NCBI GenBank assembly: GCA_000004985.1
Contig: GG738881.1
DNA from: Naegleria gruberi
Lineage: Eukaryota
Length of the DNA stretch: 64,000 nt
Strand: one strand, 5' to 3'
The first letter of the stretch is position 1, and the number at the start of each line of letters is the position of its first letter. The notes beneath the pieces were generated by a model. That model was not told the DNA's origin and did no database searches. It worked only from the letters and a program-made list of their open reading frames with translations. Shown in pieces: positions 1-14,640 of the stretch. Position numbers and translations under genes: made by a program.

Positions 1-350
1 CCAAACCCAAACCCAAACCCAAACCCAAACCCAAACCCAAACCCAAACCCAAACCCAAACCCAAACCCAAACCCAAACCCAAACCCAAACCCAAACCCAA
101 ACCCAAACCCAAACCCAAACCCAACCCAAACCCAAACCCAAACCCAAACCCAAACCCAAACCCAAACCCAAACCCAAACCCAAACCCAAACCCAAACCCA
201 AACCCAAACCCAAACCCAAACCCAAACCCAAACCCAAACCCAAACCCAAACCCAAACCCAAACCCAAACCCAAACCCAAACCCAAACCCAAACCCAAACC
301 CAAACCCAAACCCAAACCCAAACCCAAACCCAAACCCAAACCCAAACCCA
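1..350. repeat. Telomeric repeat array (CCCAAA)n, about 58 units; C-rich strand shown, so this is a left chromosome end
   Basis: Near-perfect hexamer repeat from position 1 to about 350. There is one variant unit (cccaac) near 121-126. The array ends abruptly at ...cccaaaccca|gaactaaaaa. Confidence 0.9.
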
Positions 351-1929: not shown

Positions 1930-1939
1930 AATTAAATTT

Positions 1940-2600
1940 TACCATCATATCACACTCATTGAATAATGAATTAATTATACAAGCATAATACATTCAATTG
2001 TTATATTCATGTCAGTAATCAGTGAAGGTGACACTTCTTTAACCTTAGTATGCACATCTCAATATGTAGACAGTCAATTCCACTGAAACTTGAAATATTA
2101 CCTATTTAGATGATATAATGATGACTCTACATTGTAACATGAATGTGAAATTGAATGTTGACACTTTTCATATTGTTATATTTATAGAGATGGTATCCAA
2201 CAGAGTCAGTTCACAATATTAAATATTGAAACTCATTCTTTATGACATGTTTGATGTATAGAACTGTTTTTTATTGAATGTAATCAGTTTGAAATAATTT
2301 GATGAAACTGACACTGTCTAGTCACCATTACATGACAAATAGACCATAGTTTACATTCCATCTCAGTCATTTCAACGATTTATTGATTAATTCCACCACC
2401 ATTATGTTTCTCATACATTGTAGTACAGTTTATATTTCAAGAGTGATTTCTGTGTAGATTAGTATAATCGTAATAGCATGCAATACCAATAAAACTCAAT
2501 AGAAGAGTTAATTCTTCTCATTTTCAAATAGATTATTCAATATAGAACACATCTAGATAGTTTCCAGATCATAAAAGTCTAGATACTATATATGGTCTTT
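1940..2600. repeat. Subtelomeric dispersed repeat, copy A (about 660 bp)
   Basis: Shares long blocks with 3560-4150, for example ...attcaattgttatattcatgtcagtaatcagtgaaggtgacacttctt.aaccttagtat.cac.tctcaat..., ...ttatatttatagagatggtatccaacagagtcagttcacaatat.aaatattgaaactcattctttatgacat..., ...accatagtttacattccatctcagtcatttc.acga.ttattgat.a.ttccaccaccattatgtttct.atacac/t.tagtaca.tt... and ...acacatctag..atttccaga..ataaaagtc.agat.c.a.atatgg. Copy A carries an extra insert of about 90 bp. Confidence 0.75.
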
Positions 2601-3559
2601 GATTAAATTTAAAAATAGACTGCCGTTAATTACTGGAATATTAATATTCAAAGCTTGTTGATCAAGCTATTGATTGAAATCAAACCGATTATTGAATATT
2701 GATCATTGAATTGGTGAATAATCACTCTCTTGATAATGCTACAAATTGGATATTGATGCAAATAAACCTGATTCAATCTACAAAGGTTGGTAGTTGCACC
2801 ACTACGTGGCGAAACTACCATTCCACGATGAATCAACAAAGAATCACTTACATTCAACTCAATTTGACCGTTATAATCAATAAATCAATGAAATGTTGTT
2901 TTATTAGCAATACCTATTCAATCTAATGAGTAGATTCACGTCCCAAACATTTGACTTCTCAAAGTCCATAATACAAAAGTTAGTTCTGACCTGACCTTTA
3001 TATATCTATCAATATAAGAAATGAAACCATCAAATTTACATCATTTATAGATGATAAGAATTATAATCAATGATATAAATCTTCACTAAGTAATCTCTTA
3101 AATAACCCAAATAAATCAACTCTGAATCCTAACCAAACCCATATACATCTATACACGTTTTGAAACAATTCATGATACTTTCTTTCAGTCAATCAGTAAA
3201 TATTTAATGTCAATAATGCTTATATCCAAGTGTACACACTGTCTCAATGAAAGTATATCCAACCATCACTTAACTTTACCAGATACATTTAGTCACACTG
3301 ATATACAACTGGTATCAATTTTGGTGTTTTAGAATTGAATTCAATATGATAATAATAACAATCTGTCAAATTCTCATATTTCAACTTGTAGAATATGCTC
3401 CATCTCATTCATTTTACAAAATATCATACAAGTATCAAATATTAATACACTCCTCTTGATGAGGAGAACAATCTGAGAAAGTTTCATATTCATAGCTCAA
3501 TATCTTCATGGGTAGTAAATAGGGAAGTATCTTATTTTCAAAATTAAGTTTTACTATAA

Positions 3560-4150
3560 TTCTACAATTATTGAATAATGAAATACTTATACAAGAATCA
3601 TATATTCAATTATTATATTCATGTCAGTAATCAGTGAAGGTGACACTTCTTCAACCTTAGTATACACGTCTCAATGTGAAGTTGAGTATTGGCACTTTTC
3701 ATCTTGTTATATTTATAGAGATGGTATCCAACAGAGTCAGTTCACAATATCAAATATTGAAACTCATTCTTTATGACATATGTGATGTCTAGAAGTGTTT
3801 TTGATGATATCAATCTAGTTTCAAGCTCTTTGGCGGAGTTGACACTGTTTAGTTACAAATACATGACATTTGGACCATAGTTTACATTCCATCTCAGTCA
3901 TTTCGACGAGTTATTGATCAGTTTCACCACCATTATGTTTCTAATACACTTTAGTACAATTTGTGTTTCATGAATGATTTCTGTGAAAGTTATTATCCAA
4001 ATACCATATATAGTAATATCAATAGTCGTTATATACTCAATTCAAGAGTTAATTTTATTTCTTCTTTTTTTCATATAGATTATTGAATATGGAACACATC
4101 TAGCCTATTTCCAGACTATAAAAGTCCAGATCCCAAATATGGCAAAATGA
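3560..4150. repeat. Subtelomeric dispersed repeat, copy B (about 590 bp)
   Basis: Roughly 85% identical to copy A, same orientation, 1.6 kb downstream. No long ORF in either copy. Confidence 0.75.
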
Positions 4151-4523
4151 ATTCTTGGCGAGAGGGCAAGTTTTTCTGACAAATTCCAAACTTTATTGAT
4201 TATCTCAATAAATATAGGAAGGTACACCTTCCTGTTTTTAACACATGTAGATCAGACTATTATACATCACATTGATAAGTTATAAGATCTGAGCATGTGC
4301 GGATCCCAAACCAGAGAGATAATGACAGATACAATCCCCAAAGATTCCAAATAACTCCGAAATTTTCATTGAATTCAACCCAAGGCATGCCAATAGAATA
4401 TGGGAGAATTGATCAAGAGGATTTTTCAGTAACAAAATGATCACTGTGAAGAATAGTTAGGATTGTGTTGAAATGGAAGTGATGACGCAAACTACACGTG
4501 TTAGTTGGTAGAAACTAAAAAAA

Positions 4524-5645
4524 ATGCAGAAACTCGACATTCATATTCTTCCAGATGAAATAATGGAAGCAATATTGTCCAATCTTCAACTGTATGAAGT
4601 ATTCTTCTGCTTTTCAAGAGTTTCGAAGTATTTTCAACAACTTTCTCATTCAGTCATTCAACATGAATATTACAGCACCATTGTTGACCAATTTAATCAA
4701 AAACCGAGTTCGTTTAATTTCGGAGATTGCATTAAATTCGTCAAATTCAGTTTGAGAAATTCGGTTTATCAATATGCGGTCCTAATTATTCAAAAATACT
4801 TGTCAACCAGAAGTCCAGAATTCAACAATATTCCAGTAATTATGGGAGAAAAAGATTTACAATTTTGGAAACAATCCGAGCAGGATTTTATGTATTTGAA
4901 GGCTTTTTTTGATAATTTTCATGATTTACCAGGTCGTGGTAAGCCTGTTATTGAACCAACTGTTGTAAAAGAAGAAGAAGGATTACTTTCGAATATTTTT
5001 TCCGTATTCGAAACATTATTTGCAATGACAAGTCGAGTAATAGCAAAAAAAACATCTACTTACTCAGATCCTCAACAATCTGTTCACATCATTGGTGAAG
5101 AAGAAAGTGTCTCATCATTTTTCAATTGTGCCTCTTATGATAAAACTCAGAGTTTAACAGTTAGTTTTCCCGATCGTTGTTGGAAGATTGCATATGTTGG
5201 TGATGGGAAATATATGAGGATGTGTTTAACCAAGAATGATTACAATATGGATCAATCATCTTATTTTATCTTGGTGGGAAATCCTTATTCCAGTAATTGT
5301 TTGACAGAATTTGAAATGATGAAGAATGGTATTAAGCAATATTCGAAAGGAGCAGAAGTAATTGTTGTGACTTCAATGAAGGATTTACAAAACGGTCAAC
5401 CAAGATTCATTTCTAATGAACAAGCAAATTGGTTTGCTTATCAACAATTTGGAGGATTGTTCAAGGATATCACAACGACAGAATTGGAAGAACCATATGT
5501 AGTATCTTGTTATTGTTTCTTGATGAGATACTTCCTTGGAAATAAACCCCTTGAACTAGAGAATGAGAATGGATACTATTGGAAAGTGAGGAGTCAGTTT
5601 ATTGTACATGACATTGAGATTGTGGACAGAGTCTTTCGACACTAA
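4524..5645 (+). CDS. F-box-like domain protein (373 aa), single exon
   Basis: ATG at 4524. The N-terminus LPDEIMEAILSNLQLYEVFFCFSRVSKYFQQL fits the F-box pattern (LP.E.L..IL..L....L......VCK.W). TAA stop. Confidence 0.6.
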   Translation: MQKLDIHILPDEIMEAILSNLQLYEVFFCFSRVSKYFQQLSHSVIQHEYYSTIVDQFNQKPSSFNFGDCIKFVKFSLRNSVYQYAVLIIQKYLSTRSPEFNNIPVIMGEKDLQFWKQSEQDFMYLKAFFDNFHDLPGRGKPVIEPTVVKEEEGLLSNIFSVFETLFAMTSRVIAKKTSTYSDPQQSVHIIGEEESVSSFFNCASYDKTQSLTVSFPDRCWKIAYVGDGKYMRMCLTKNDYNMDQSSYFILVGNPYSSNCLTEFEMMKNGIKQYSKGAEVIVVTSMKDLQNGQPRFISNEQANWFAYQQFGGLFKDITTTELEEPYVVSCYCFLMRYFLGNKPLELENENGYYWKVRSQFIVHDIEIVDRVFRH

Positions 5646-5821
5646 TATATTCCTCTCTTACTTTGGAATATTGTTCAATAAAAGTGACTTGGCTCATTAA
5701 GTGAGATTCTTTAAATAAATCATTTCCACATTCACTCAAATCCAAAGCCATCGGAACTTTTTTAATTTTCTATAATTGATAACCAGTGTGCTGAGAGTAA
5801 AATTGGTGGAGGAAATATACT

Positions 5822-7144
5822 TTATTTCTTCATCACTGAAAGAGTTTTCACCAAAAATTCTTTTGTACTCTTTTTCAATTTTTCCAGTTCACTGCCATTT
5901 CTTCTCAAATATTTGAAAAGTTTTCCAACTTCTTGTTTTGCACGCTTTTCTCCATCGTTGTGATATTTTGAATTTAATGTTCTAATTTCTACATGTGGTT
6001 TGATACCCATATTATTATATTCCAACTTGGTGGCTCTTGTCTTGCAAAGTGGACATTGATTTAAGGAACTGAAAGGTTTCATACTCATTTCACACTTGAC
6101 AAAATTATTCGAATCTTCAAATTGGGAATCAAATGGAATATCCCTGGTGAGTTGATAGTCTTCTGCCGTTAGAATATCATCCTCATCAGCTGCAATATCT
6201 GTAGAAGAAGGCAATTTAGCACATTGCTCATAAACACAATTCTCACACAAACAACAATGGTAACATGGAACAAATTGATATACAGGTTGATTTTCTAAAC
6301 ACAAGACACATGTTTCACTCTTCAAGTCAGTTGTAGCTCCATAAGAATTAGAAATATTGACCGTTCTTGATGTCCTTGAAGTTGAACTCTGACAAGTGTT
6401 ATTAAATTTAAAAACATGCAAACTTACCAGTCGTTGCTCAATTTCTTCCAAATCACTCTTTAGTTTGGCTTTATGATTCTTCATTTGTGTCAAATTCATA
6501 TTGGCAATGTTTTCGAGACCTGTAACAACTCTTGACAGTTGAGTGGTTTGAAAAGCTTGGCGAAAGAGCTCTATTGTCTCTATTTCTCTTTGTAATGCCC
6601 TTCTTTCTTCCAATCTTTCAGCTTCTAGCTGTGTTATGTCATAAGTCACAAAGTCCACAATATAAGAAATCAAACCAATGATTGAAGACACCTTATAAAT
6701 CAACCAAATCAGATATTTAACGCCACTAAAACTAACATTCCATGAATAGATATAATACATGATCACCAAACAATCAGGAATTCCCAAAAAGTTATGCAAA
6801 ATCACTTGCCAAAGTGACAAATGATTCCAGTAATAAAATGTCAAATTAGGAAAGACATAATAGAATACCATCTTCATATAAGAGATAGAAGATACCCTCT
6901 GCTCCTCTGGAATGTGAAAATCTTCATTTCCAATCCAATTACTTGTTTTTAAATAAAGAAAAACACAGAACAAGGTTAATGGATTGAAAAGTACAGAGCA
7001 AAATCTGATGACAGTGTTGATATTTTGGCGTTCCTGAGGGTGGTATACAGGAGGGATAAGAAATCTAACGATTGCTTTGTACATTTTTTTTAAATGATAG
7101 TTTTTGTGTTGACACTTTGAAAATTTGACAGAATCATTGATCAT
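5822..7144 (-). CDS. Multi-pass membrane protein with coiled coil and C-terminal C3HC4 RING finger (putative membrane E3 ubiquitin ligase), 440 aa
   Basis: ATG at 7144 (minus). Hydrophobic helices in the N-terminal half. RING motif CVLCLENQPVYQFVPCYHCCLCENC. TAA stop. Confidence 0.6.
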   Translation of the reverse strand: MINDSVKFSKCQHKNYHLKKMYKAIVRFLIPPVYHPQERQNINTVIRFCSVLFNPLTLFCVFLYLKTSNWIGNEDFHIPEEQRVSSISYMKMVFYYVFPNLTFYYWNHLSLWQVILHNFLGIPDCLVIMYYIYSWNVSFSGVKYLIWLIYKVSSIIGLISYIVDFVTYDITQLEAERLEERRALQREIETIELFRQAFQTTQLSRVVTGLENIANMNLTQMKNHKAKLKSDLEEIEQRLVSLHVFKFNNTCQSSTSRTSRTVNISNSYGATTDLKSETCVLCLENQPVYQFVPCYHCCLCENCVYEQCAKLPSSTDIAADEDDILTAEDYQLTRDIPFDSQFEDSNNFVKCEMSMKPFSSLNQCPLCKTRATKLEYNNMGIKPHVEIRTLNSKYHNDGEKRAKQEVGKLFKYLRRNGSELEKLKKSTKEFLVKTLSVMKK

Positions 7145-7991
7145 GTCAAGTTTCGATCATGAGTTTTGATTGGATAATATTTTGATCATGAAACTTGTCA
7201 ATTTTTACAATCTAGTTGGCAGAATCAGTTTCTTCGTGTCTCTCGAATGGTTCGTCCACTACAGAATTAACAACAACTGTGGTGAATTCACTTACCTAGT
7301 CAAGGTGTTATTTCATTCTCTGATTGTTGTTCAACCTTTACTCTAGTTCCTTTCTATTACATATTATTGGATGGCAAGCAATTTCCAAGTATTATGATGA
7401 TTCAAGGACAATACTTTTATTAAAGATATAAAACTTGGATGATGTTCCGATATTGTACATTTGTGTATATTAGTGAGAAACCTCCACCATGAATTGAAGA
7501 AAGTAAGGATGAAGATGTTATATGTTGTGAAAATAAATAGTTACTAGAAGAAAGTTTTTGATTTGGTCAAGTAGTGATGGTACATTATCTTGTACCGATT
7601 CCAATAAAGACAAAAATCCTCCAAAATTCACCCCACACATAGTATTGACCATTCTGAACAATCTCCAATTGCTGGTTTTTGTGATGACCAAGTAGATGTG
7701 CCGATTTTGATGAAAAATCGACTTGGAGCCAAATAATTTTAAAGAGTAAACTTGCAGAATACTAATTTAAATACTATTAGAACAACAAATCAACCTGTTC
7801 TAACAACATTTGAAATTTTTCCCAAGTGATGATGATATTAAATTTCTTGATGATTAAAATTTCCAACAATAAAATTACTATTCTACTATATCCAAAGATC
7901 ATGCACATTGAATCAGCAATGATGAAGTGATTATTTTTTTTGTTAGAGAATACTTTTCTTACCATTTGCATTAGAAAGGAAAGATCCTTTT

Positions 7992-10900
7992 ATGAACAGG
8001 ACAGTTACTCCAGTATTATCTGATCCTTTCGAATATTCTCAAAACAAAACAACAACACACTACCAAAAACAAATAATGTCGTCCAAGATAACATCCACCA
8101 GCAACAACCACTTTTCTTCTCTCAATAGTGATGAAAATGTAAAACACCAACAAGAAGCAATACAACAATCATCATCATCGGCATCGTCATCAACAACATC
8201 ATCTTTTTCAAATAGTAGTGGTAGTGGTGCCGTATTATTGTCATCATTTCAAGAAAAGGCAATCAATGAAATCATGATACGAGCATTCACGAATCGGAAT
8301 GTCATTCTCATTGTTTTTATCATTATATATTGTTGTTCTTTATTGTATACCTTCACTTCTCAGGGAATATTTGGAACATTATTTAATATGTTTCTAATTG
8401 CTGTTCAGATGACATTAAATAGAGGAAATATCAAATCAACAATGGCTATGGATTTTTCAAAAGCAGATAAAGATGAGAAACAAAGACTTGTCTATTCAAT
8501 GATTATTACAACGTTGAGATATTTCATATTTCCGAAAAACAAGATTTTGTTTCTTCCTTCGACGTTTATGTGGTTTGTTGGAGCTAACAAATTGTTTGAT
8601 GAGAATAATGCTTTTTGGGGAATGTTGCCGACCTATTTCTTAACAAGTCTATATGGAGGAGTTGGATTGGTGGCAGCTGTGATGGAATTTGTGAGGAAGG
8701 GATGTAGTGAGACATTTGTGGATTCAGCTTGTGAATGTGCTTCAATGACTTGTTGTATTTGGGTATTCACCTATTACAAGGTTAATGTGACTGGGTATTT
8801 GAGGCAGAAAGTTGCAACTTTGGAAGAAACCAGTAAGAAATTAGAGTCAGCTCTGGAATCAAAAAGTACATTTTTGTCTCACATTTCACATGAATTTAGG
8901 TGTCCATTGCTGTCGTCATTGGGAAGTTTGGAATTATTGAAAGAAACAAATATGAGTGACAAGCAAAATCGACTGGTTGACATGATTATTTCATCCAACA
9001 ATATTTTGCTAATGCTCATTGAGGAAGTGTTACAATTGATGAAAATTGAATTCAATTCAAAGAATGACAAACGAGATGAGTATTTAAAAACATTCAATTT
9101 GGGAGAATGTCTAAAATCCCTTAAAGATGTCATTTCTGGTTATTCGAATCATTTTTCTGTCAAGTNNNNNNNNNNNNNNNNNNNNNNNNNNNNNNNNNNN
9201 NNNNNNNNNNNNNNNTTATAGTTTCGAGGAAATCGTTTTTTAACTTTGAATAAATTCCGAATCCAATCAAGCTTAATAATATCTTCCATAGTATGTTCTG
9301 ATTTGTTCACTAGAGTTTTTAATGAATCAATTGATTTGCATAACTTGAGTTGAGATGAAGACAGGTTGTTTTTCAATAGATTTCTCTCCGAACTTTCCTG
9401 CAATAACCTTTCATACCTTCGTTTGAGACTAAACTTTTGATTTCGAACCGCTTGTAATTCTATTGTCATTAATTAAAATCATATCACAATTTATTACAAA
9501 CCTTTGGTTCTTTTTGCTTTTTCTTGATCGGATTGAGCCTTACGTTTTTTTTCATTTGCCTTCTTTAACAATGCGTACTCTTTACCTTTTTCCATCAAAT
9601 CCCTGTCAATTGTAAAATTGATGAACTCTAAATCATGGTCGGTAAGATAGATTTCTACCATTTCTCTGGCTAAATCAAATCTAGATTTCATATTTGCAGA
9701 TTTTACAACTCCTTTGTATTGCTTGATTCTTGTATTAACATTTGAAATTTTGAAAGGAGCTCCCAATTTAATCACCTTATCGATAACTGGATCGTAAACT
9801 GTGCAAGTATTGACATACTCAAAACGAACTTTGCAATAATGTTCATTTTCTTCAATCCTTTTCAATTTTTCTTTGAAACTAATCTCTTTTGGATCTTCTG
9901 CGCATGTTTCGATAGATGATGATCTTGTTTGAGCTGTACTATTGAGGGGATCTTGAATCAATTCTAATAACTTTCTTGCAACTCTTCTCTTCAAGCCAAT
10001 CAATTCCAAAGACTCCTCATTTTCATCCAACAAATGCTCTGACAATCTTATAACGTTTTCATAAAGAGCCAACTTGATTTTCTCAAGCTCATCATCCTCA
10101 AGAGCCATTGAGCTTTGCAATAGTTCCATCAAATCATCCATTTCTAACATTTTTTTCTTAATTCTTATATAATTTAGAACAGTTACATCCTCTTATATTG
10201 TAGTATTTCTCATAGATAATTTCTCAGTAACATCTCTCCTTAATATAACTATTAGATTTGTAGCTGATTATATCGGAATTATCCATCCATTATCCATTTT
10301 ATCCTGGCTTTGTCTTGATGGGATCCACTTATAGTGGATCCCATCTGACAAAATCCTTTCAATCCAGCGTTGGCTGGATAACACGGATACATATTACCCT
10401 CGTTATTATTATCGTATTGAATTCTATTCTAACAATGTGAAATTGATACAAGATATATAGTAATGTAATTAAATGTATCTGGTAAATTTACATGGTAAAT
10501 TTACATGATGATTGGATGTACTTTCATTGAGATGGAGTGTTCACTAGGATATATAGTGTTGACATTGAACATTCTGATTAATTTTATGAAAGTAGTTTGA
10601 AATGTTTCTAAACTATTNNNNNNNNNNNNNNNNNNNNNNNNNNNNNNNNNNNNNNNNNNNNNNNNNNTCATTACACAATGTGAACGAATCTCATGTTCCA
10701 TCATCAGGATTGGGCTTAACTACTGTCTTACAATTTATTAAACAAATGGATGGAACTATAGATGTGGAATCTGAACTAGAAAAAGGAAGTACATTTATTG
10801 TCACACTACCTTTCAAAATAATGAAAAAGGCGGAATTTTCTGATTGGGATAATAGTGGAGCCAAGATGAATTTTTCAATTCAACAGAGATACCTTTCTCT

Positions 10901-11318
10901 TTTATCAAATGTTCATGAAATGAGTGAAGAATCTGCTGCTACCAATTCTCCAGAAGTTTATTCAAAGATTATTCTGGCAGAAGATAATGCTATCAATAGA
11001 AAAGTCATCCTCAAACTCATTGAAAGTATTACAGGATATACAGCTGATTTTGTCTCAGATGGAAAGGAATTAGTTAAAAATTTTGACATTCGACGCCATA
11101 GGTTGGTGATTACAGATCTTAACATGCCAAACATGGATGGTATTGAGGCAGCCAAAGAGTTGAAGCGTTTGTATGGAAATTCTGTCAAAATTATTATCCT
11201 CACTGGTAATTCAGCTGTCAATGTTGAATCTCTGAAAGGAATTGTTGATGGATTGCTGGAAAAACCATGTTGTAAAGAAGATTTACGGAAATGTATTGAT
11301 CTATACTGTAAGGAATAA
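7992..11318 (+). CDS. Hybrid sensor histidine kinase (multi-TM sensor - HisKA - [gaps] - HATPase_c - REC), disrupted in this assembly
   Basis: ORF 7992..9165 carries 4-5 TM helices, a coiled coil and the H-box LSHISHEFRCPL. ORF 10668..11318 carries the G2 box SGLGLTTV and a complete receiver domain (IILAEDNAINRKV...ITDLNMPNMDG...LEKP). The two halves are separated by 50-N gaps at 9166-9215 and 10618-10667 and by about 1.4 kb of opposite-strand coding sequence. The N and G1 boxes are not present in the sequence shown. Confidence 0.75.
9216..9469 (-). CDS. Hypothetical ORF (partial, runs into the gap at 9166-9215)
   Basis: ATG at 9469, immediately downstream of the stop of 9494..10150. It may be a separate small gene or spurious. 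Confidence 0.25.
9494..10150 (-). CDS. Hypothetical acidic/basic protein (218 aa) lying between the two halves of the histidine kinase on the opposite strand
   Basis: ATG at 10150, TAA at 9494. No domain recognised. Confidence 0.45.
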   Translation of the reverse strand: MLEMDDLMELLQSSMALEDDELEKIKLALYENVIRLSEHLLDENEESLELIGLKRRVARKLLELIQDPLNSTAQTRSSSIETCAEDPKEISFKEKLKRIEENEHYCKVRFEYVNTCTVYDPVIDKVIKLGAPFKISNVNTRIKQYKGVVKSANMKSRFDLAREMVEIYLTDHDLEFINFTIDRDLMEKGKEYALLKKANEKKRKAQSDQEKAKRTKGL

Positions 11319-11700: not shown

Positions 11701-14640
11701 ATGTCCTATTATTTGAATCAATTGGAAGGTTCCGATGATGATGAATATTATAGTGAAGAAGAAGAAGAAGAATTTGATGATGATGATGAAATAATTCATG
11801 ATCAAGAGGAAGAAGTCGATGAAGAGGAAGATAGTGAGGAAAGAGCTGCTGCTATCGAACAACAAAAGGCTTCACTTTCTATTCAAACACTTTCCAATAA
11901 GAAACAACAAAACAAACAAAAGAACAAGATTGCGAAGACAAACACTTCCAAAAAGAAAGATCAACAACAGGAAAGCGTTGTCATGTCCATGACCGAAGAA
12001 GAATTGGAATATTATCAAAATTTAAAGTTGTACGGAATTTCTGGACCTAAAAACATGAATAAGAAGGAAAATCAAGTGATTGAAGAAATCAAATTTAAAT
12101 TGGATGTTCTCCAATCATCGAAAATGTTCTTTGAAAGTGTAAGACCAACCTCTCTGACAATCATTTCCGGAAATCCAAAATATGAAGAACAAAAACGTTA
12201 CATTATGGCTCATCAATATGAGGCTAGAAAAGGAAAACACTATAACAATGATGATGCCATGATTGAAGGAGAAGTAGTTGCTCCTAAATTCTTATTCCAA
12301 GATGTTAGTTCTTCAAAGATTGGTGAATATGTTAGAAATTTGATGAATAGAGTAGATCACTTATCTACACTTTCTCACGACGAAAGATCATTGTTTATTT
12401 ATGGTGGAAGAACAGGCACCTTGCTTCACGATGATTTGATTCGTTATGATTTTATGACTGGTAAAATGGTTGTTTTCAAGAATTTGGGATTTGTCAGTCA
12501 TTGTGATGGTACTAGAGTACAAGTACCATGCCCTTCTATTTCTAATAGTGAAATGGTTTCATGTGGAGGTAGAGTTTATATTTTTGGAGCTACTTATGGT
12601 TTTCCAAATAGTTTAGATTCGGTTCTTACCAGAGCCCATTTTGGATATTTTTGGGGTAATAGACCTAATACTGCATGGACCAATAATGAATTGGTTATTT
12701 TGTGTATGGATGGAGTGATTGGATTCAATAGTGGTCTTTTGGGTGTTGATATACCACGTGTTAATACTACAGCTCTTACTGAAAGATCACATCCTGTAAG
12801 AAGTGCAACTTCTGATATTCCTCCAGCTCGTTCTCACTTCTCTATGGTCAAGATGGTAAAGGGCTCAAATCTAGTTGAAGCAATTATCTTTGGTGGTAAG
12901 AAGAATACTGTCTTGGATGACATGTACACTTTCACCTTCTCTGATAGGGGACAAACCTATGAAGTCAAACAAATCAAAAAACCACCACCATCCAAAAAGG
13001 ATGGTCTTGTTACTTGGCCATGTGCAAGATATGGCCACACTGCTTGTCTCGTGAGTAATTTAATGTTCGTCTATGGTGGATGCAATGTCAAAGGAAAATT
13101 ATTGAACGATTTGTACATGTTTGATATTTCAACTCAAAAGTGGACTGAAATTATTTGTGATTCAATGTTACCTCCTCCACTCTTCAAATCTCAATCCTTC
13201 GCTGTAAACAACCAGTCCATTTACATTTATGGAGGTCAATCTACTCAAGAAAACAGCAATATTCCTCCTACCATTTCTTCCAGTTTATTTAGATTTGATA
13301 TTACTGACAAGAAGTGGAATATTATTGAAATTATCACGGAAGAAGCAGATGATATTCAAAATAATAAGGCTGTTCCATGTGTTGGACATCAAACTCAAAT
13401 TGTTCATGGAAAATTGTTGCGTATTGGTGGATTGGCAAATAATGTTGGTGATCCATTTGTAAAGCTTTTAAATTTGAACGACCCTGGTAGACCAATTCCA
13501 CTCTGTTCCTATCTCTCAAGTAAGAGAGCAGATGGATTTTTGTGTGATGTTGTTTTCAGAGTCCGTGACGTTCTTGGTCAAGAAATTGACTCACTCAGTT
13601 ATGTTCTTGCACATAAGGCCATCCTAAAGGCCAGATGTTCCTCTCTCCACAAGATGATTCTTGCCAGTACTGAAACTATGAGTACTACAAAGCTCTCCGG
13701 AACATTTAATGATGAAATGAGTGAAATTACTCTTGTAGATATTGAACAAGTTGACACTGCAGTTTTTGAGCAATATCTCAACTTCCTCTACAGTGGTAGT
13801 TTGGATTTAAAGTCTCTCAATGAGGTTAATTCATTCCTTGAATTTGCCAAGACAATATCACCAGATAATCATTATCCAGCTATTGTAAAGATTTGTACCG
13901 CGGAAGAACAAAAGGATTTGGAAGTTACCAAGCTTGTTCTATCTCAAATTCACAAAGATTTCTCCACTCTCATCAATGATCATTCATACAGCGATTTGAT
14001 TGTTGTTTTGGATCAAGGTGATGCTGTAGCTCAACATGTCGGAGGACCAACAGAGGAAATTTTCGAAGAGGAACCATTTGAAATTCCAGAAACTAGCTTT
14101 GAAACTAATGATGCTACTGCTGAATTAGAACACGAAATCATGTCACCATTGACTAGAAATACTGTTCCAACAGGTGGTATTGCAGTTCACAGATTAATCA
14201 TGTCAAGATCTCCATTCTTCTCAAGAATGTTTGTTACTTCTGGTATGATGGAATCAAAGGAAAGAGTTGTTCACTTGACCGATTATTCCACTGAAGTTAT
14301 GCTTGAAGTCTTGAGCTATTTGTACACTGATACTATTAGACTTTCACCAAGAAATTGTCTTGGTATTTTAGTTTATTGTATCATGTTGGATTTGGTTGAT
14401 ATGGCTAGTGTTTGTAGAAGAATGGTCGTTTCACTTTTGGAAGATTCTATTGTTTGGTCTGTTATTGACATTGCCATGCTCTATAATGACAAGACTTTGG
14501 AATCTGAATGTGAACATTACATTTTAAATAATTTCGAAAAGCTTCGTGGTGCTGCTGGTTTCTTGAATTTACCAGAACTGACCAGAATTAAGATTAAACA
14601 ATTATATGAAAAGAAAGCTGAAAAGAAATCTAAGAAATAA
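11701..14640 (+). CDS. LZTR1: LZTR1-like protein: acidic N-terminus, about 6 Kelch repeats, then two BTB/BACK domains (979 aa), single exon
   Basis: Kelch blades (FIYGGRTG, YIFGATYG, IIFGGKKN, VYGGCN, IYIYGGQS). Two BTB cores (LCDVVFRVRDVLGQEIDSLSYVLAHKAIL ... and YSDLIVVLDQGD...AVHRLIMSRSPFFSRMF). This is the architecture diagnostic for LZTR1. TAA stop. Confidence 0.75.
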   Translation: MSYYLNQLEGSDDDEYYSEEEEEEFDDDDEIIHDQEEEVDEEEDSEERAAAIEQQKASLSIQTLSNKKQQNKQKNKIAKTNTSKKKDQQQESVVMSMTEEELEYYQNLKLYGISGPKNMNKKENQVIEEIKFKLDVLQSSKMFFESVRPTSLTIISGNPKYEEQKRYIMAHQYEARKGKHYNNDDAMIEGEVVAPKFLFQDVSSSKIGEYVRNLMNRVDHLSTLSHDERSLFIYGGRTGTLLHDDLIRYDFMTGKMVVFKNLGFVSHCDGTRVQVPCPSISNSEMVSCGGRVYIFGATYGFPNSLDSVLTRAHFGYFWGNRPNTAWTNNELVILCMDGVIGFNSGLLGVDIPRVNTTALTERSHPVRSATSDIPPARSHFSMVKMVKGSNLVEAIIFGGKKNTVLDDMYTFTFSDRGQTYEVKQIKKPPPSKKDGLVTWPCARYGHTACLVSNLMFVYGGCNVKGKLLNDLYMFDISTQKWTEIICDSMLPPPLFKSQSFAVNNQSIYIYGGQSTQENSNIPPTISSSLFRFDITDKKWNIIEIITEEADDIQNNKAVPCVGHQTQIVHGKLLRIGGLANNVGDPFVKLLNLNDPGRPIPLCSYLSSKRADGFLCDVVFRVRDVLGQEIDSLSYVLAHKAILKARCSSLHKMILASTETMSTTKLSGTFNDEMSEITLVDIEQVDTAVFEQYLNFLYSGSLDLKSLNEVNSFLEFAKTISPDNHYPAIVKICTAEEQKDLEVTKLVLSQIHKDFSTLINDHSYSDLIVVLDQGDAVAQHVGGPTEEIFEEEPFEIPETSFETNDATAELEHEIMSPLTRNTVPTGGIAVHRLIMSRSPFFSRMFVTSGMMESKERVVHLTDYSTEVMLEVLSYLYTDTIRLSPRNCLGILVYCIMLDLVDMASVCRRMVVSLLEDSIVWSVIDIAMLYNDKTLESECEHYILNNFEKLRGAAGFLNLPELTRIKIKQLYEKKAEKKSKK

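What the first reader, a model, noticed from the sequence alone, without database searches (positions are those of the whole stretch)
7992..11318. Hybrid histidine kinase interrupted by a gap-bounded 1.4-kb block encoding genes on the opposite strand: nested gene or scaffolding misjoin
TM-sensor plus HisKA lie at 7992-9165 and HATPase(G2)-REC at 10668-11318. The two gaps (9166-9215, 10618-10667) bracket a segment whose coding capacity (9216-10150) runs on the minus strand. The kinase N and G1 boxes (about 70 aa) are missing. Other introns in this window are 33-210 nt, so a 1.5-kb intron with a nested antisense gene would be exceptional. An inverted or misplaced contig between two gaps is the simpler explanation. 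Either way the gene model here is unreliable.
Basis: seen in the sequence. Interest (0 to 1): 0.5.

Follow-up and report, generated by a model that had tools for sequence, protein, structure and literature searches.

The report
Stray contig splitting a Naegleria kinase gene
A real but unannotated sensor histidine kinase gene near a chromosome end of Naegleria gruberi looks interrupted, most likely because the 2010 draft assembly slotted a small unrelated contig (a fragment of a P-element-like transposase gene) into a roughly 0.3-kb sequencing gap, so this is probably an assembly artefact and not unusual biology.

Summary
Two 50-N gaps (9166-9215, 10618-10667) bracket a 1402-bp block that lies between the two halves of a hybrid histidine kinase.

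The window is the Naegleria gruberi NEG-M draft assembly. It begins with the telomere repeat, so the locus lies 8-11 kb from a chromosome end.

- **Kinase:** the two halves are collinear, on the same strand, and both conserved (dN/dS 0.10-0.16 against an orthologue). Each half stops in the middle of coding sequence. In the orthologue (metagenome contig L001) the missing piece is 88 aa (N, G1 and F boxes) plus one 62-nt intron, 326 bp in total. Two other homologous loci encode this stretch in a single ORF.
- **Block:** it holds none of the missing kinase sequence on either strand, so an inverted contig is excluded. Its minus-strand gene is not a complete nested gene. It is the 5' part of a P-element/THAP9-like (TNP-like) transposase-family gene. 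It runs open into gap 1, and at least 478 aa are missing from it and absent from the whole window. The block's other end stops inside a repeat whose only other copy is subtelomeric (3157-3359).

Best reading (about 0.7): a stray contig placed in a small sequencing gap. A real transposon insertion is not excluded (about 0.2). The kinase has no annotated protein among those searched.

The parts
7992..9165 (+). Hybrid histidine kinase, 5' part of the CDS (391 codons plus 1 nt). It has an S/T-rich N-terminus, six hydrophobic segments, a coiled linker and HisKA. It ends mid-coding at ...GYSNHFSVK.
   Evidence: ORF. Pfam HisKA. 57% aa identity to the orthologue L001, aligned to its last codon. dN/dS 0.10-0.16.
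8301..8768 (+). Membrane sensor region with six hydrophobic segments (aa 104-259), conserved with P0001, P0002 and P0003.
   Evidence: Kyte-Doolittle peaks. Alignments.
8859..9050 (+). HisKA dimerisation and phospho-acceptor domain. H box SHISHEFRCP, His300 at 8889-8891.
   Evidence: Pfam PF00512, E=3.7e-12. Coordinates.
9166..9215 (.). Gap 1 (50 N). It cuts both the kinase CDS (+) and the block gene's exon 2 (-).
9216..10617 (.). The 1402-bp block, a separate contig whose two ends are both arbitrary. It contains no kinase sequence in any frame.
9502..10150 (-). Block gene exon 1 (ATG at 10150). The annotated protein XP_002674916.1 / NAEGRDRAFT_69847 (218 aa) is this exon read through into the intron.
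   Evidence: 100% match to P0121. Splice deduced.
9460..9501 (-). 42-nt phase-1 GT..AG intron of the block gene, at the same position as a 43-nt intron in the homologue L002.
9216..9459 (-). Block gene exon 2, incomplete (coiled coil, then ...IIKLDWIRNLFKVKKRFPRNY). It is open at the gap. The homologue continues for at least 478 aa into a TNP-like RNase H domain.
10402..10613 (-). Copy of repeat E, 73% identical to 3157-3359 in the opposite orientation. It reaches to 4 nt from the block's right end.
3157..3359 (+). The only other copy of repeat E in the window, in the subtelomere about 3 kb from the telomere repeat.
10618..10667 (.). Gap 2 (50 N).
10668..11318 (+). Hybrid histidine kinase, 3' part of the CDS. 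It resumes mid-coding at SLHNVNESHVPSSGLGL (G2 box at 10707-10718), followed by a linker, the REC domain (10968-11297, Asp at 11115-11117) and the stop codon at 11316-11318.
   Evidence: 71% aa identity to L001 from its first codon. dN/dS 0.15.

Best explanation
This is a scaffolding artefact in the Sanger draft of Naegleria gruberi NEG-M.

Contig B (1930-9165) and contig D (10668 onward) are true neighbours. They carry the two ends of one intact hybrid histidine kinase gene: a six-segment membrane sensor, HisKA, HATPase_c and REC. What separates them is a small sequencing gap of roughly 0.3 kb. That gap holds the N, G1 and F boxes, and possibly a short intron.

The 1402-bp contig C does not lie between them. 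It is a stray contig carrying the promoter region and the first 297 codons of a P-element/THAP9-like (TNP-like) transposase-family gene. The scaffolder could only place it at an existing gap, and it gave both flanking gaps a conventional 50 N. Where the contig really belongs is unknown. Candidates are this or another subtelomere, or a haplotype-specific insertion nearby.

Shown: the anatomy of both genes, the truncation of the block at both ends, and the contiguous structure of related kinase loci.

Inferred: that the block is physically absent from this site in the N. gruberi chromosome.
For: 1. Source. The block ORF is 100% identical to N. gruberi XP_002674916.1 on a 379,849-bp scaffold. The window therefore comes from a gapped draft assembly.
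2. The kinase halves have the same strand and order. Both align to the orthologue right up to the gap edges, so both contigs end inside coding sequence.
3. In the orthologue L001 the interval is 264 nt of CDS plus one 62-nt intron, 326 bp in total. In L003 and L004 the same interval lies within a single ORF. A 1402-bp insert has no counterpart in any of them.
4. Both halves are under purifying selection against L001 (dN/dS 0.10-0.16). There are no stops in 391 + 216 codons in a 33% GC genome.
5. The block carries none of the missing 80-88 aa in any frame.
6. The block is truncated at both ends.
   - Its gene runs open into gap 1 and lacks at least 478 aa. The homologue L002 continues into Pfam PF21787 TNP-like RNaseH_N (33.2 bits against a cut-off of 24.6). 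None of this is elsewhere in the window.
   - Its other end stops 4 nt inside repeat E.
7. Gap sizes in this scaffold are sometimes estimated (886 N), yet both gaps here are exactly 50 N. That fits a floor or default value given to gaps that came out at or below zero. If the block truly sat here, gap 1 would need at least about 0.2 kb of kinase exon, plus at least 1.4 kb if the block gene is complete.
8. Heterolobosean introns seen or reported are short: 42, 43 and 62 nt here, and 9-95 bp in Acrasis kona (PMC11589745).
Against: - No independent N. gruberi sequence (reads, mate pairs, long-read assembly, transcripts) could be consulted. N. gruberi is not in the contig look-up.
- The meaning of the 50-N gaps (floor versus 'unknown size') is my inference from three gaps.
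- The scaffolder presumably had mate-pair links tying the block to this neighbourhood. The block also shares repeat E with a site 6 kb away, so it may truly lie close by.
- Transposon-related sequence is what one would expect to find flanked by assembly gaps if it really were inserted here.
- The orthologue and the other homologues come from other organisms, so they say nothing about a recent, strain-specific insertion.
Confidence: 0.7

Rival explanations
1. Real insertion. A P-element-like (TNP-like) transposon, or a relic of one, is physically inserted antisense into the N-G1 region of the kinase gene in NEG-M. It could sit in the intron seen in the G1 box of the orthologue or in an exon, and might be present in only one haplotype. 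The assembler failed on its repeated or heterozygous parts and left two gaps.
For: - The block gene belongs to a transposase-related family.
- Mobile elements commonly cause assembly breaks on both sides.
- The block's right end lies in a repeat.
- The scaffolder placed it here, presumably from mate pairs.
- The orthologue has an intron in this very interval that could host an insertion.
- A recent insertion would leave both kinase ORFs intact, as observed.
Against: - An insertion is a point event, but at least 264 nt of unique kinase coding sequence are missing around it. Both kinase contigs stop in unique coding sequence and not at a transposon boundary.
- If the element is complete, gap 1 would have to hide at least 1.4 kb of transposase gene plus about 0.2 kb of kinase exon, yet it is written as 50 N in a scaffold that elsewhere gives an estimated 886 N.
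- No second copy of the gene and no terminal inverted repeats are visible in the window.
- The closest annotated paralogue is only 39% identical, so this is not a young high-copy family.
Confidence: 0.2
2. Genuine large intron with a nested antisense host gene. The kinase has an intron of at least 1.5 kb that contains a functional gene on the opposite strand, and the kinase mRNA is spliced across it.
For: - Both kinase halves are intact and conserved.
- The block gene has its own upstream region, ATG and a spliced intron.
- Gap lengths are formally unknown.
Against: - The supposed nested gene is not complete. It is open at gap 1 and lacks at least 478 aa relative to its homologue.
- The orthologue has only a 62-nt intron here, and two other homologous loci have none.
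- Introns seen in these organisms are tens of nucleotides long (PMC11589745).
- The kinase exon sequence continues into both gaps, so neither intron boundary is visible.
Confidence: 0.04
3. Inverted contig. The block belongs here but was placed in the wrong orientation, so the missing kinase segment is on its other strand.
For: None beyond the block's coding capacity being on the minus strand.
Against: - tblastn of the missing segment from four homologues, and an HMM built from them, find nothing significant in the block or anywhere in the window in six frames. The best block hit is E=0.058 at 18.5 bits.
- The block's minus-strand ORF is a different, independently conserved protein.
Confidence: 0.01

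Closest known systems
Naegleria gruberi membrane-bound hybrid histidine kinases (24 annotated; Excavata groups II-IV of Kabbara et al. 2019, PMC6324907). The nearest annotated paralogue is XP_002672168.1 (P0002).
   Same: - Multi-helix N-terminal sensor with no known domain, followed by HisKA, HATPase_c and REC.
- Shared motifs: RYFIFPKNKILFLP, NVTGYL, HISHEFRCP and VPSSGLGLTTV.
   Different: - No annotated N. gruberi protein corresponds to it; the best is 40% identical.
- Its ATP-binding core (N, G1, F boxes) is not in the assembly.
- It lies 8-11 kb from a telomere.
Orthologous kinase locus on metagenome contig L001 (ENA ERZ929261, k127_159497; P0001)
   Same: - 57% (N part) and 71% (C part) aa identity, including the sensor region.
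- Same domain order.
   Different: - It is contiguous: 88 aa plus a 62-nt intron in the G1 box where the window has gap-block-gap.
- It comes from an uncultured relative, not from N. gruberi.
P-element / THAP9-like (TNP-like) transposases
   Same: The block gene's homologue L002 continues, after the same intron and the shared KLDWIRNL motif, into a Pfam TNP-like RNase H N-terminal domain above the curated cut-off.
   Different: - The block itself holds only the N-terminal 297 aa, which have no Pfam match.
- No THAP zinc finger was detected.
- No terminal inverted repeats or target-site duplication are visible.
- Whether it is an active element, a relic or a domesticated gene is unknown.
Interleaved or stray small contigs in mate-pair scaffolded Sanger draft assemblies
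   Same: - A short contig bounded by two identical conventional-size gaps.
- Flanking contigs that fit each other directly.
- Features of the small contig truncated at both ends.
   Different: The artefact is inferred from gene structure and comparison with relatives, not from read or mate-pair data.

Membership tests
Hybrid histidine kinase (HisKA-HATPase_c-REC) | HisKA domain with an H-box histidine | tested here: met
   Pfam PF00512, E=3.7e-12, aa 290-353. SHISHEFRCP, His300 at 8889-8891.
Hybrid histidine kinase (HisKA-HATPase_c-REC) | Complete HATPase_c with N, G1, F and G2 boxes | tested here: inconclusive
   Only profile positions 71-110 of 111 are present, including the G2 box GLGL. The N, G1 and F boxes fall in the unsequenced interval. 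They are present in all four homologues and absent from the window.
Hybrid histidine kinase (HisKA-HATPase_c-REC) | C-terminal receiver domain with acidic pocket, phospho-acceptor Asp and conserved Lys | tested here: met
   Pfam PF00072, E=2.4e-19, full length 1-110 of 111. AEDN, ITDLNMP (Asp at 11115-11117) and LEKP (Lys).
Nested (intronic) gene | A complete gene contained within an intron of the host gene | tested here: not met
   The minus-strand gene runs open into gap 1. Its homologue L002 continues for at least 478 aa.
Nested (intronic) gene | Host-gene splice donor and acceptor flanking the nested gene, and spliced host transcripts | not testable with these tools
   Kinase coding sequence continues into both gaps. 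No N. gruberi transcript data could be reached.
Scaffolding artefact (stray contig placed in a gap) | Flanking contigs are collinear and join directly once the block is removed | tested here: met
   Same strand and order. Both edges align to adjacent parts of the orthologue, with 88 aa plus a 62-nt intron between them.
Scaffolding artefact (stray contig placed in a gap) | The block contributes nothing to the interrupted feature, and its own features are cut at its ends | tested here: met
   No kinase sequence in the block. Its gene is truncated at 9216. Repeat E is truncated at 10613-10617.
Scaffolding artefact (stray contig placed in a gap) | An independent assembly or reads show the block elsewhere and the flanks joined | not testable with these tools
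   N. gruberi is not on record in the look-up of encoding contigs.
P-element/THAP9-like (TNP-like) transposase family (block gene) | RNase H-like catalytic domain of TNP type (Pfam PF21787 and partners) | tested here: inconclusive
   It is absent from the block because the gene is cut before it. It is present in the homologue L002 at 33.2 bits against a cut-off of 24.6. Homology between block and L002: E=3e-12 and 3e-5 by tblastn, and 2.4e-5 in a library of 1.8 billion proteins.
P-element/THAP9-like (TNP-like) transposase family (block gene) | N-terminal THAP zinc-finger DNA-binding domain | tested here: not met
   No Pfam THAP hit in the block protein even at E<=10.
P-element/THAP9-like (TNP-like) transposase family (block gene) | Terminal inverted repeats and a target-site duplication delimiting a mobile element | not testable with these tools
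   Both ends of any element would lie beyond the block. Only a 13-nt internal palindrome was found.

The most novel reading that the evidence does not exclude
A P-element-like transposon, possibly present in one haplotype only, has recently inserted antisense into the ATP-binding-domain region (or its small intron) of a subtelomeric hybrid histidine kinase gene in N. gruberi NEG-M. The assembly gaps would then be a consequence of that insertion. This would be a snapshot of ongoing transposon activity and gene disruption at a Naegleria chromosome end.
Probability: 0.18. Interest if true: 0.3.

Novelty: not a real feature. Interest (0 to 1): 0.15.

Why it matters
The value is mainly for curation.

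1. N. gruberi has at least one hybrid histidine kinase beyond the 24 counted from the annotation (PMC6324907). The assembly problem hides it.
2. XP_002674916.1, annotated as a 218-aa 'predicted protein', is really the mis-terminated first exon of a TNP-like transposase-family gene. Its paralogue XP_002668845.1 probably has the same defect.
3. The case shows that gap-bounded small contigs in this draft should not be read as introns or nested genes.

If the minority reading were true, it would document a transposon insertion into a signalling gene at a chromosome end. That would be of modest interest.

Tried and rejected
- Looked for independent N. gruberi sequence by exact-protein look-up: the 979-aa neighbour, P0121 and P0122. 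None is on record.
- Scanned JGI metagenome contigs with a kinase alignment. The first alignment was too divergent. The second gave 600 pattern matches but no relative.
- Used the last word-indexed protein search on the L002 C-terminal ORF to find N. gruberi proteins carrying the rest of the block gene. Nothing was found.
- Ran phmmer of the same ORF against PDB sequences. Nothing at E<=1.
- Tried to place the block in the 886-N gap. There is no overlap of the block ends with 744-1043 or 1930-2229. The local arrangement, repeat E then a 182-bp spacer then repeat R, does not match what follows repeat E in the block. A complete gene would not fit either.
- The inverted-contig idea is rejected.
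- The N. gruberi genome paper (Cell 2010) is not held, so its assembly conventions and intron statistics could not be checked.
- Structure prediction was not used. The question did not turn on a fold.
Full report
**What is there.** The window has three runs of N: 1044-1929 (886 N), 9166-9215 (50 N) and 10618-10667 (50 N). The last two bound a 1402-bp block, 9216-10617.

Left of the block, an ORF starts at the ATG at 7992 and runs to the gap edge. It has an S/T-rich N-terminus, six hydrophobic segments at aa 104-259, and a HisKA domain (Pfam E=3.7e-12) with the H box SHISHEFRCP.

Right of the block, the same strand reads SLHNVNESHVPSSGLGL... from the first base after the gap. Pfam finds only the last 40 positions of HATPase_c (the G2 box), followed by a full receiver domain. 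The stop codon is at 11316-11318.

**Where the window comes from.** The block's 218-aa minus-strand ORF is 100% identical to Naegleria gruberi XP_002674916.1 (NAEGRDRAFT_69847), on a 379,849-bp scaffold. The window starts with about 350 nt of (CCCAAA)n. TTTGGG is the candidate N. gruberi telomere repeat (PMC3622300). The locus therefore lies 8-11 kb from a chromosome end in the 2010 Sanger draft.

No N. gruberi protein in the 5.8-billion-protein collection matches the kinase. The best N. gruberi hit, XP_002672168.1, is a 40% paralogue. The kinase therefore has no annotated protein there. A survey based on the annotation counted 24 N. gruberi histidine kinases (PMC6324907).

**What should lie between the kinase halves.** The closest relative is P0001, on ENA metagenome contig L001. 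It shares 57% identity with the N part and 71% with the C part, and the alignment runs right up to both gap edges. Both N. gruberi contigs therefore end inside coding sequence.

In L001 the interval is 88 aa (N box HQILSNLITNAIKAS, G1 box DYGYGIP, F box IFEPF) plus one 62-nt GT..AG intron in the G1 box, 326 bp in total. In two further homologous loci, L003 and L004, this stretch lies within one uninterrupted ORF. It is 80-84 aa in the other three homologues, P0002, P0003 and P0004.

Against L001, both halves show dN/dS of 0.10-0.16, with dS near saturation. Both halves have therefore been kept as coding sequence.

**What the block is.** It contains nothing resembling the missing kinase segment on either strand, and neither does any frame of the whole window. 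That excludes the inverted-contig idea.

Its minus-strand gene has an ATG at 10150 and a 42-nt phase-1 intron at 9460-9501. A second exon then runs open into gap 1. The annotated 218-aa protein is simply exon 1 read into the intron.

A full HMMER search of 1.8 billion representative proteins found only two relatives:
- an N. gruberi paralogue, XP_002668845.1, at 39% identity;
- P0123, on Logan contig L002.

L002 has an intron at the same position (43 nt). Its next exon continues through the shared motif KLDWIRNL for a further 478 or more aa. That exon hits Pfam PF21787, the TNP-like (P-element/THAP9-type) RNase H N-terminal domain, above the curated cut-off.

The block gene is therefore the 5' third or less of a P-element-like transposase-family gene. 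None of the remainder is in the 64-kb window.

The block's other end stops 4 nt inside a roughly 205-bp repeat, here called repeat E. Its only other copy in the window is at 3157-3359, in the subtelomere. The block is thus a contig with two arbitrary ends.

**Interpretation.** The most economical reading is that contigs B (1930-9165) and D (10668 onward) are true neighbours, separated by a sequencing gap of about 0.3 kb. Contig C, the block, would be a stray contig that the scaffolder could only place at a gap.

The two identical 50-N gaps sit beside an 886-N gap in the same scaffold. They look like a floor or default value, as expected if a 1.4-kb contig was squeezed into a space estimated to be smaller than itself. 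This reading of the gap lengths is my inference.

If the block truly sat here, gap 1 would have to hide about 0.2 kb of kinase exon. It would also have to hide at least 1.4 kb of transposase gene, if that gene is complete.

A complete nested gene in a large intron fits poorly:
- the gene is truncated;
- relatives have no intron, or a 62-nt one, at this point;
- introns seen here are 42-62 nt, and a related heterolobosean has introns of 9-95 bp (PMC11589745).

**What remains open.** A real, recent and possibly hemizygous insertion of a TNP-like element into the kinase cannot be excluded. Mobile elements often produce exactly this gap pattern, and the scaffolder presumably had mate-pair links to this neighbourhood.

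One point argues against it. An insertion is a point event, yet at least 264 nt of unique kinase coding sequence are missing. Both kinase contigs also stop in unique sequence and not at an element boundary.

I put the artefact at about 0.7, a real insertion at about 0.2, a true large intron with a nested gene at about 0.04, and the remainder on anything else.

The decisive data could not be reached with these tools. They are the long-read assembly described in PMC12695648, the original mate pairs, PCR across 9100-10700, and RNA-seq.

**Comparison with known things, and verdict.** The kinase is an ordinary member of the Naegleria membrane-bound hybrid histidine kinases. It is new only in having no annotated protein. 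Its membership of the family rests on the HisKA, G2 and REC tests. The N, G1 and F boxes cannot be tested because they are not in the assembly.

The block gene works like, and is probably a member of, the P-element/THAP9-like transposase family. The defining catalytic domain is seen only in its homologue, and no THAP finger was detected.

The 'interruption' itself is most likely not a biological feature. Interest is low (0.15). Its value lies in correcting the annotation.

Noticed in passing
window 1-350: The window begins with about 58 copies of CCCAAA (complement TTTGGG), with one 5-nt variant unit near position 121. This is the candidate N. gruberi telomere repeat reported in PMC3622300, so the scaffold starts at a chromosome end.
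   Followed up: partly
window 1930-2595 and 3542-4142: A subtelomeric direct repeat of about 0.6 kb (80-86% identity, 1612-bp spacing). The first copy starts at the very first base after the 886-N gap, so the repeat probably extends into that gap and may explain it.
   Followed up: partly
window 9494-10150 (-) and N. gruberi XP_002668845.1 (P0122): Annotated XP_002674916.1 (218 aa) ends ...KRTKGL*. That is read-through into a 42-nt intron. The paralogue XP_002668845.1 ends ...KRQKGTSD at the aligned position, so its model is probably truncated in the same way. Both are likely first exons of TNP-like transposase-family genes.
   Followed up: partly
window 10317-10345: A perfect 13-nt inverted repeat with a 3-nt spacer (GATGGGATCCACT tat AGTGGATCCCATC), about 170-200 nt upstream of the block gene's ATG. 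It extends imperfectly to 10309-10352. Its function is unknown. It could be a protein-binding site.
   Followed up: no
window 10474-10512: Relative to the subtelomeric copy of repeat E, the block copy carries a 13-nt tandem duplication (CATGTAAATTTAC twice), which creates overlapping small palindromes.
   Followed up: no
P0002 = N. gruberi XP_002672168.1 (not in the window): The nearest annotated paralogous kinase model (544 aa) ends ...EDKRNCT, exactly where homologues have the start of the receiver domain (AEDN...). The model probably misses an intron and the whole REC domain.
   Followed up: no
window 11701-14640 (+): An uninterrupted 979-aa ORF with Kelch repeats and two BTB domains (LZTR1-like architecture) lies immediately downstream of the kinase. 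An exact-sequence look-up found no record.
   Followed up: no
L003 1636-3360 and L001 (both ENA ERZ929261): The same metagenome sample holds at least two different Naegleria-type membrane histidine kinase genes, P0001 and P0003. This indicates an uncultured Naegleria-like organism with this kinase clade. No close homologue from N. fowleri or N. lovaniensis appeared among the top hits.
   Followed up: no
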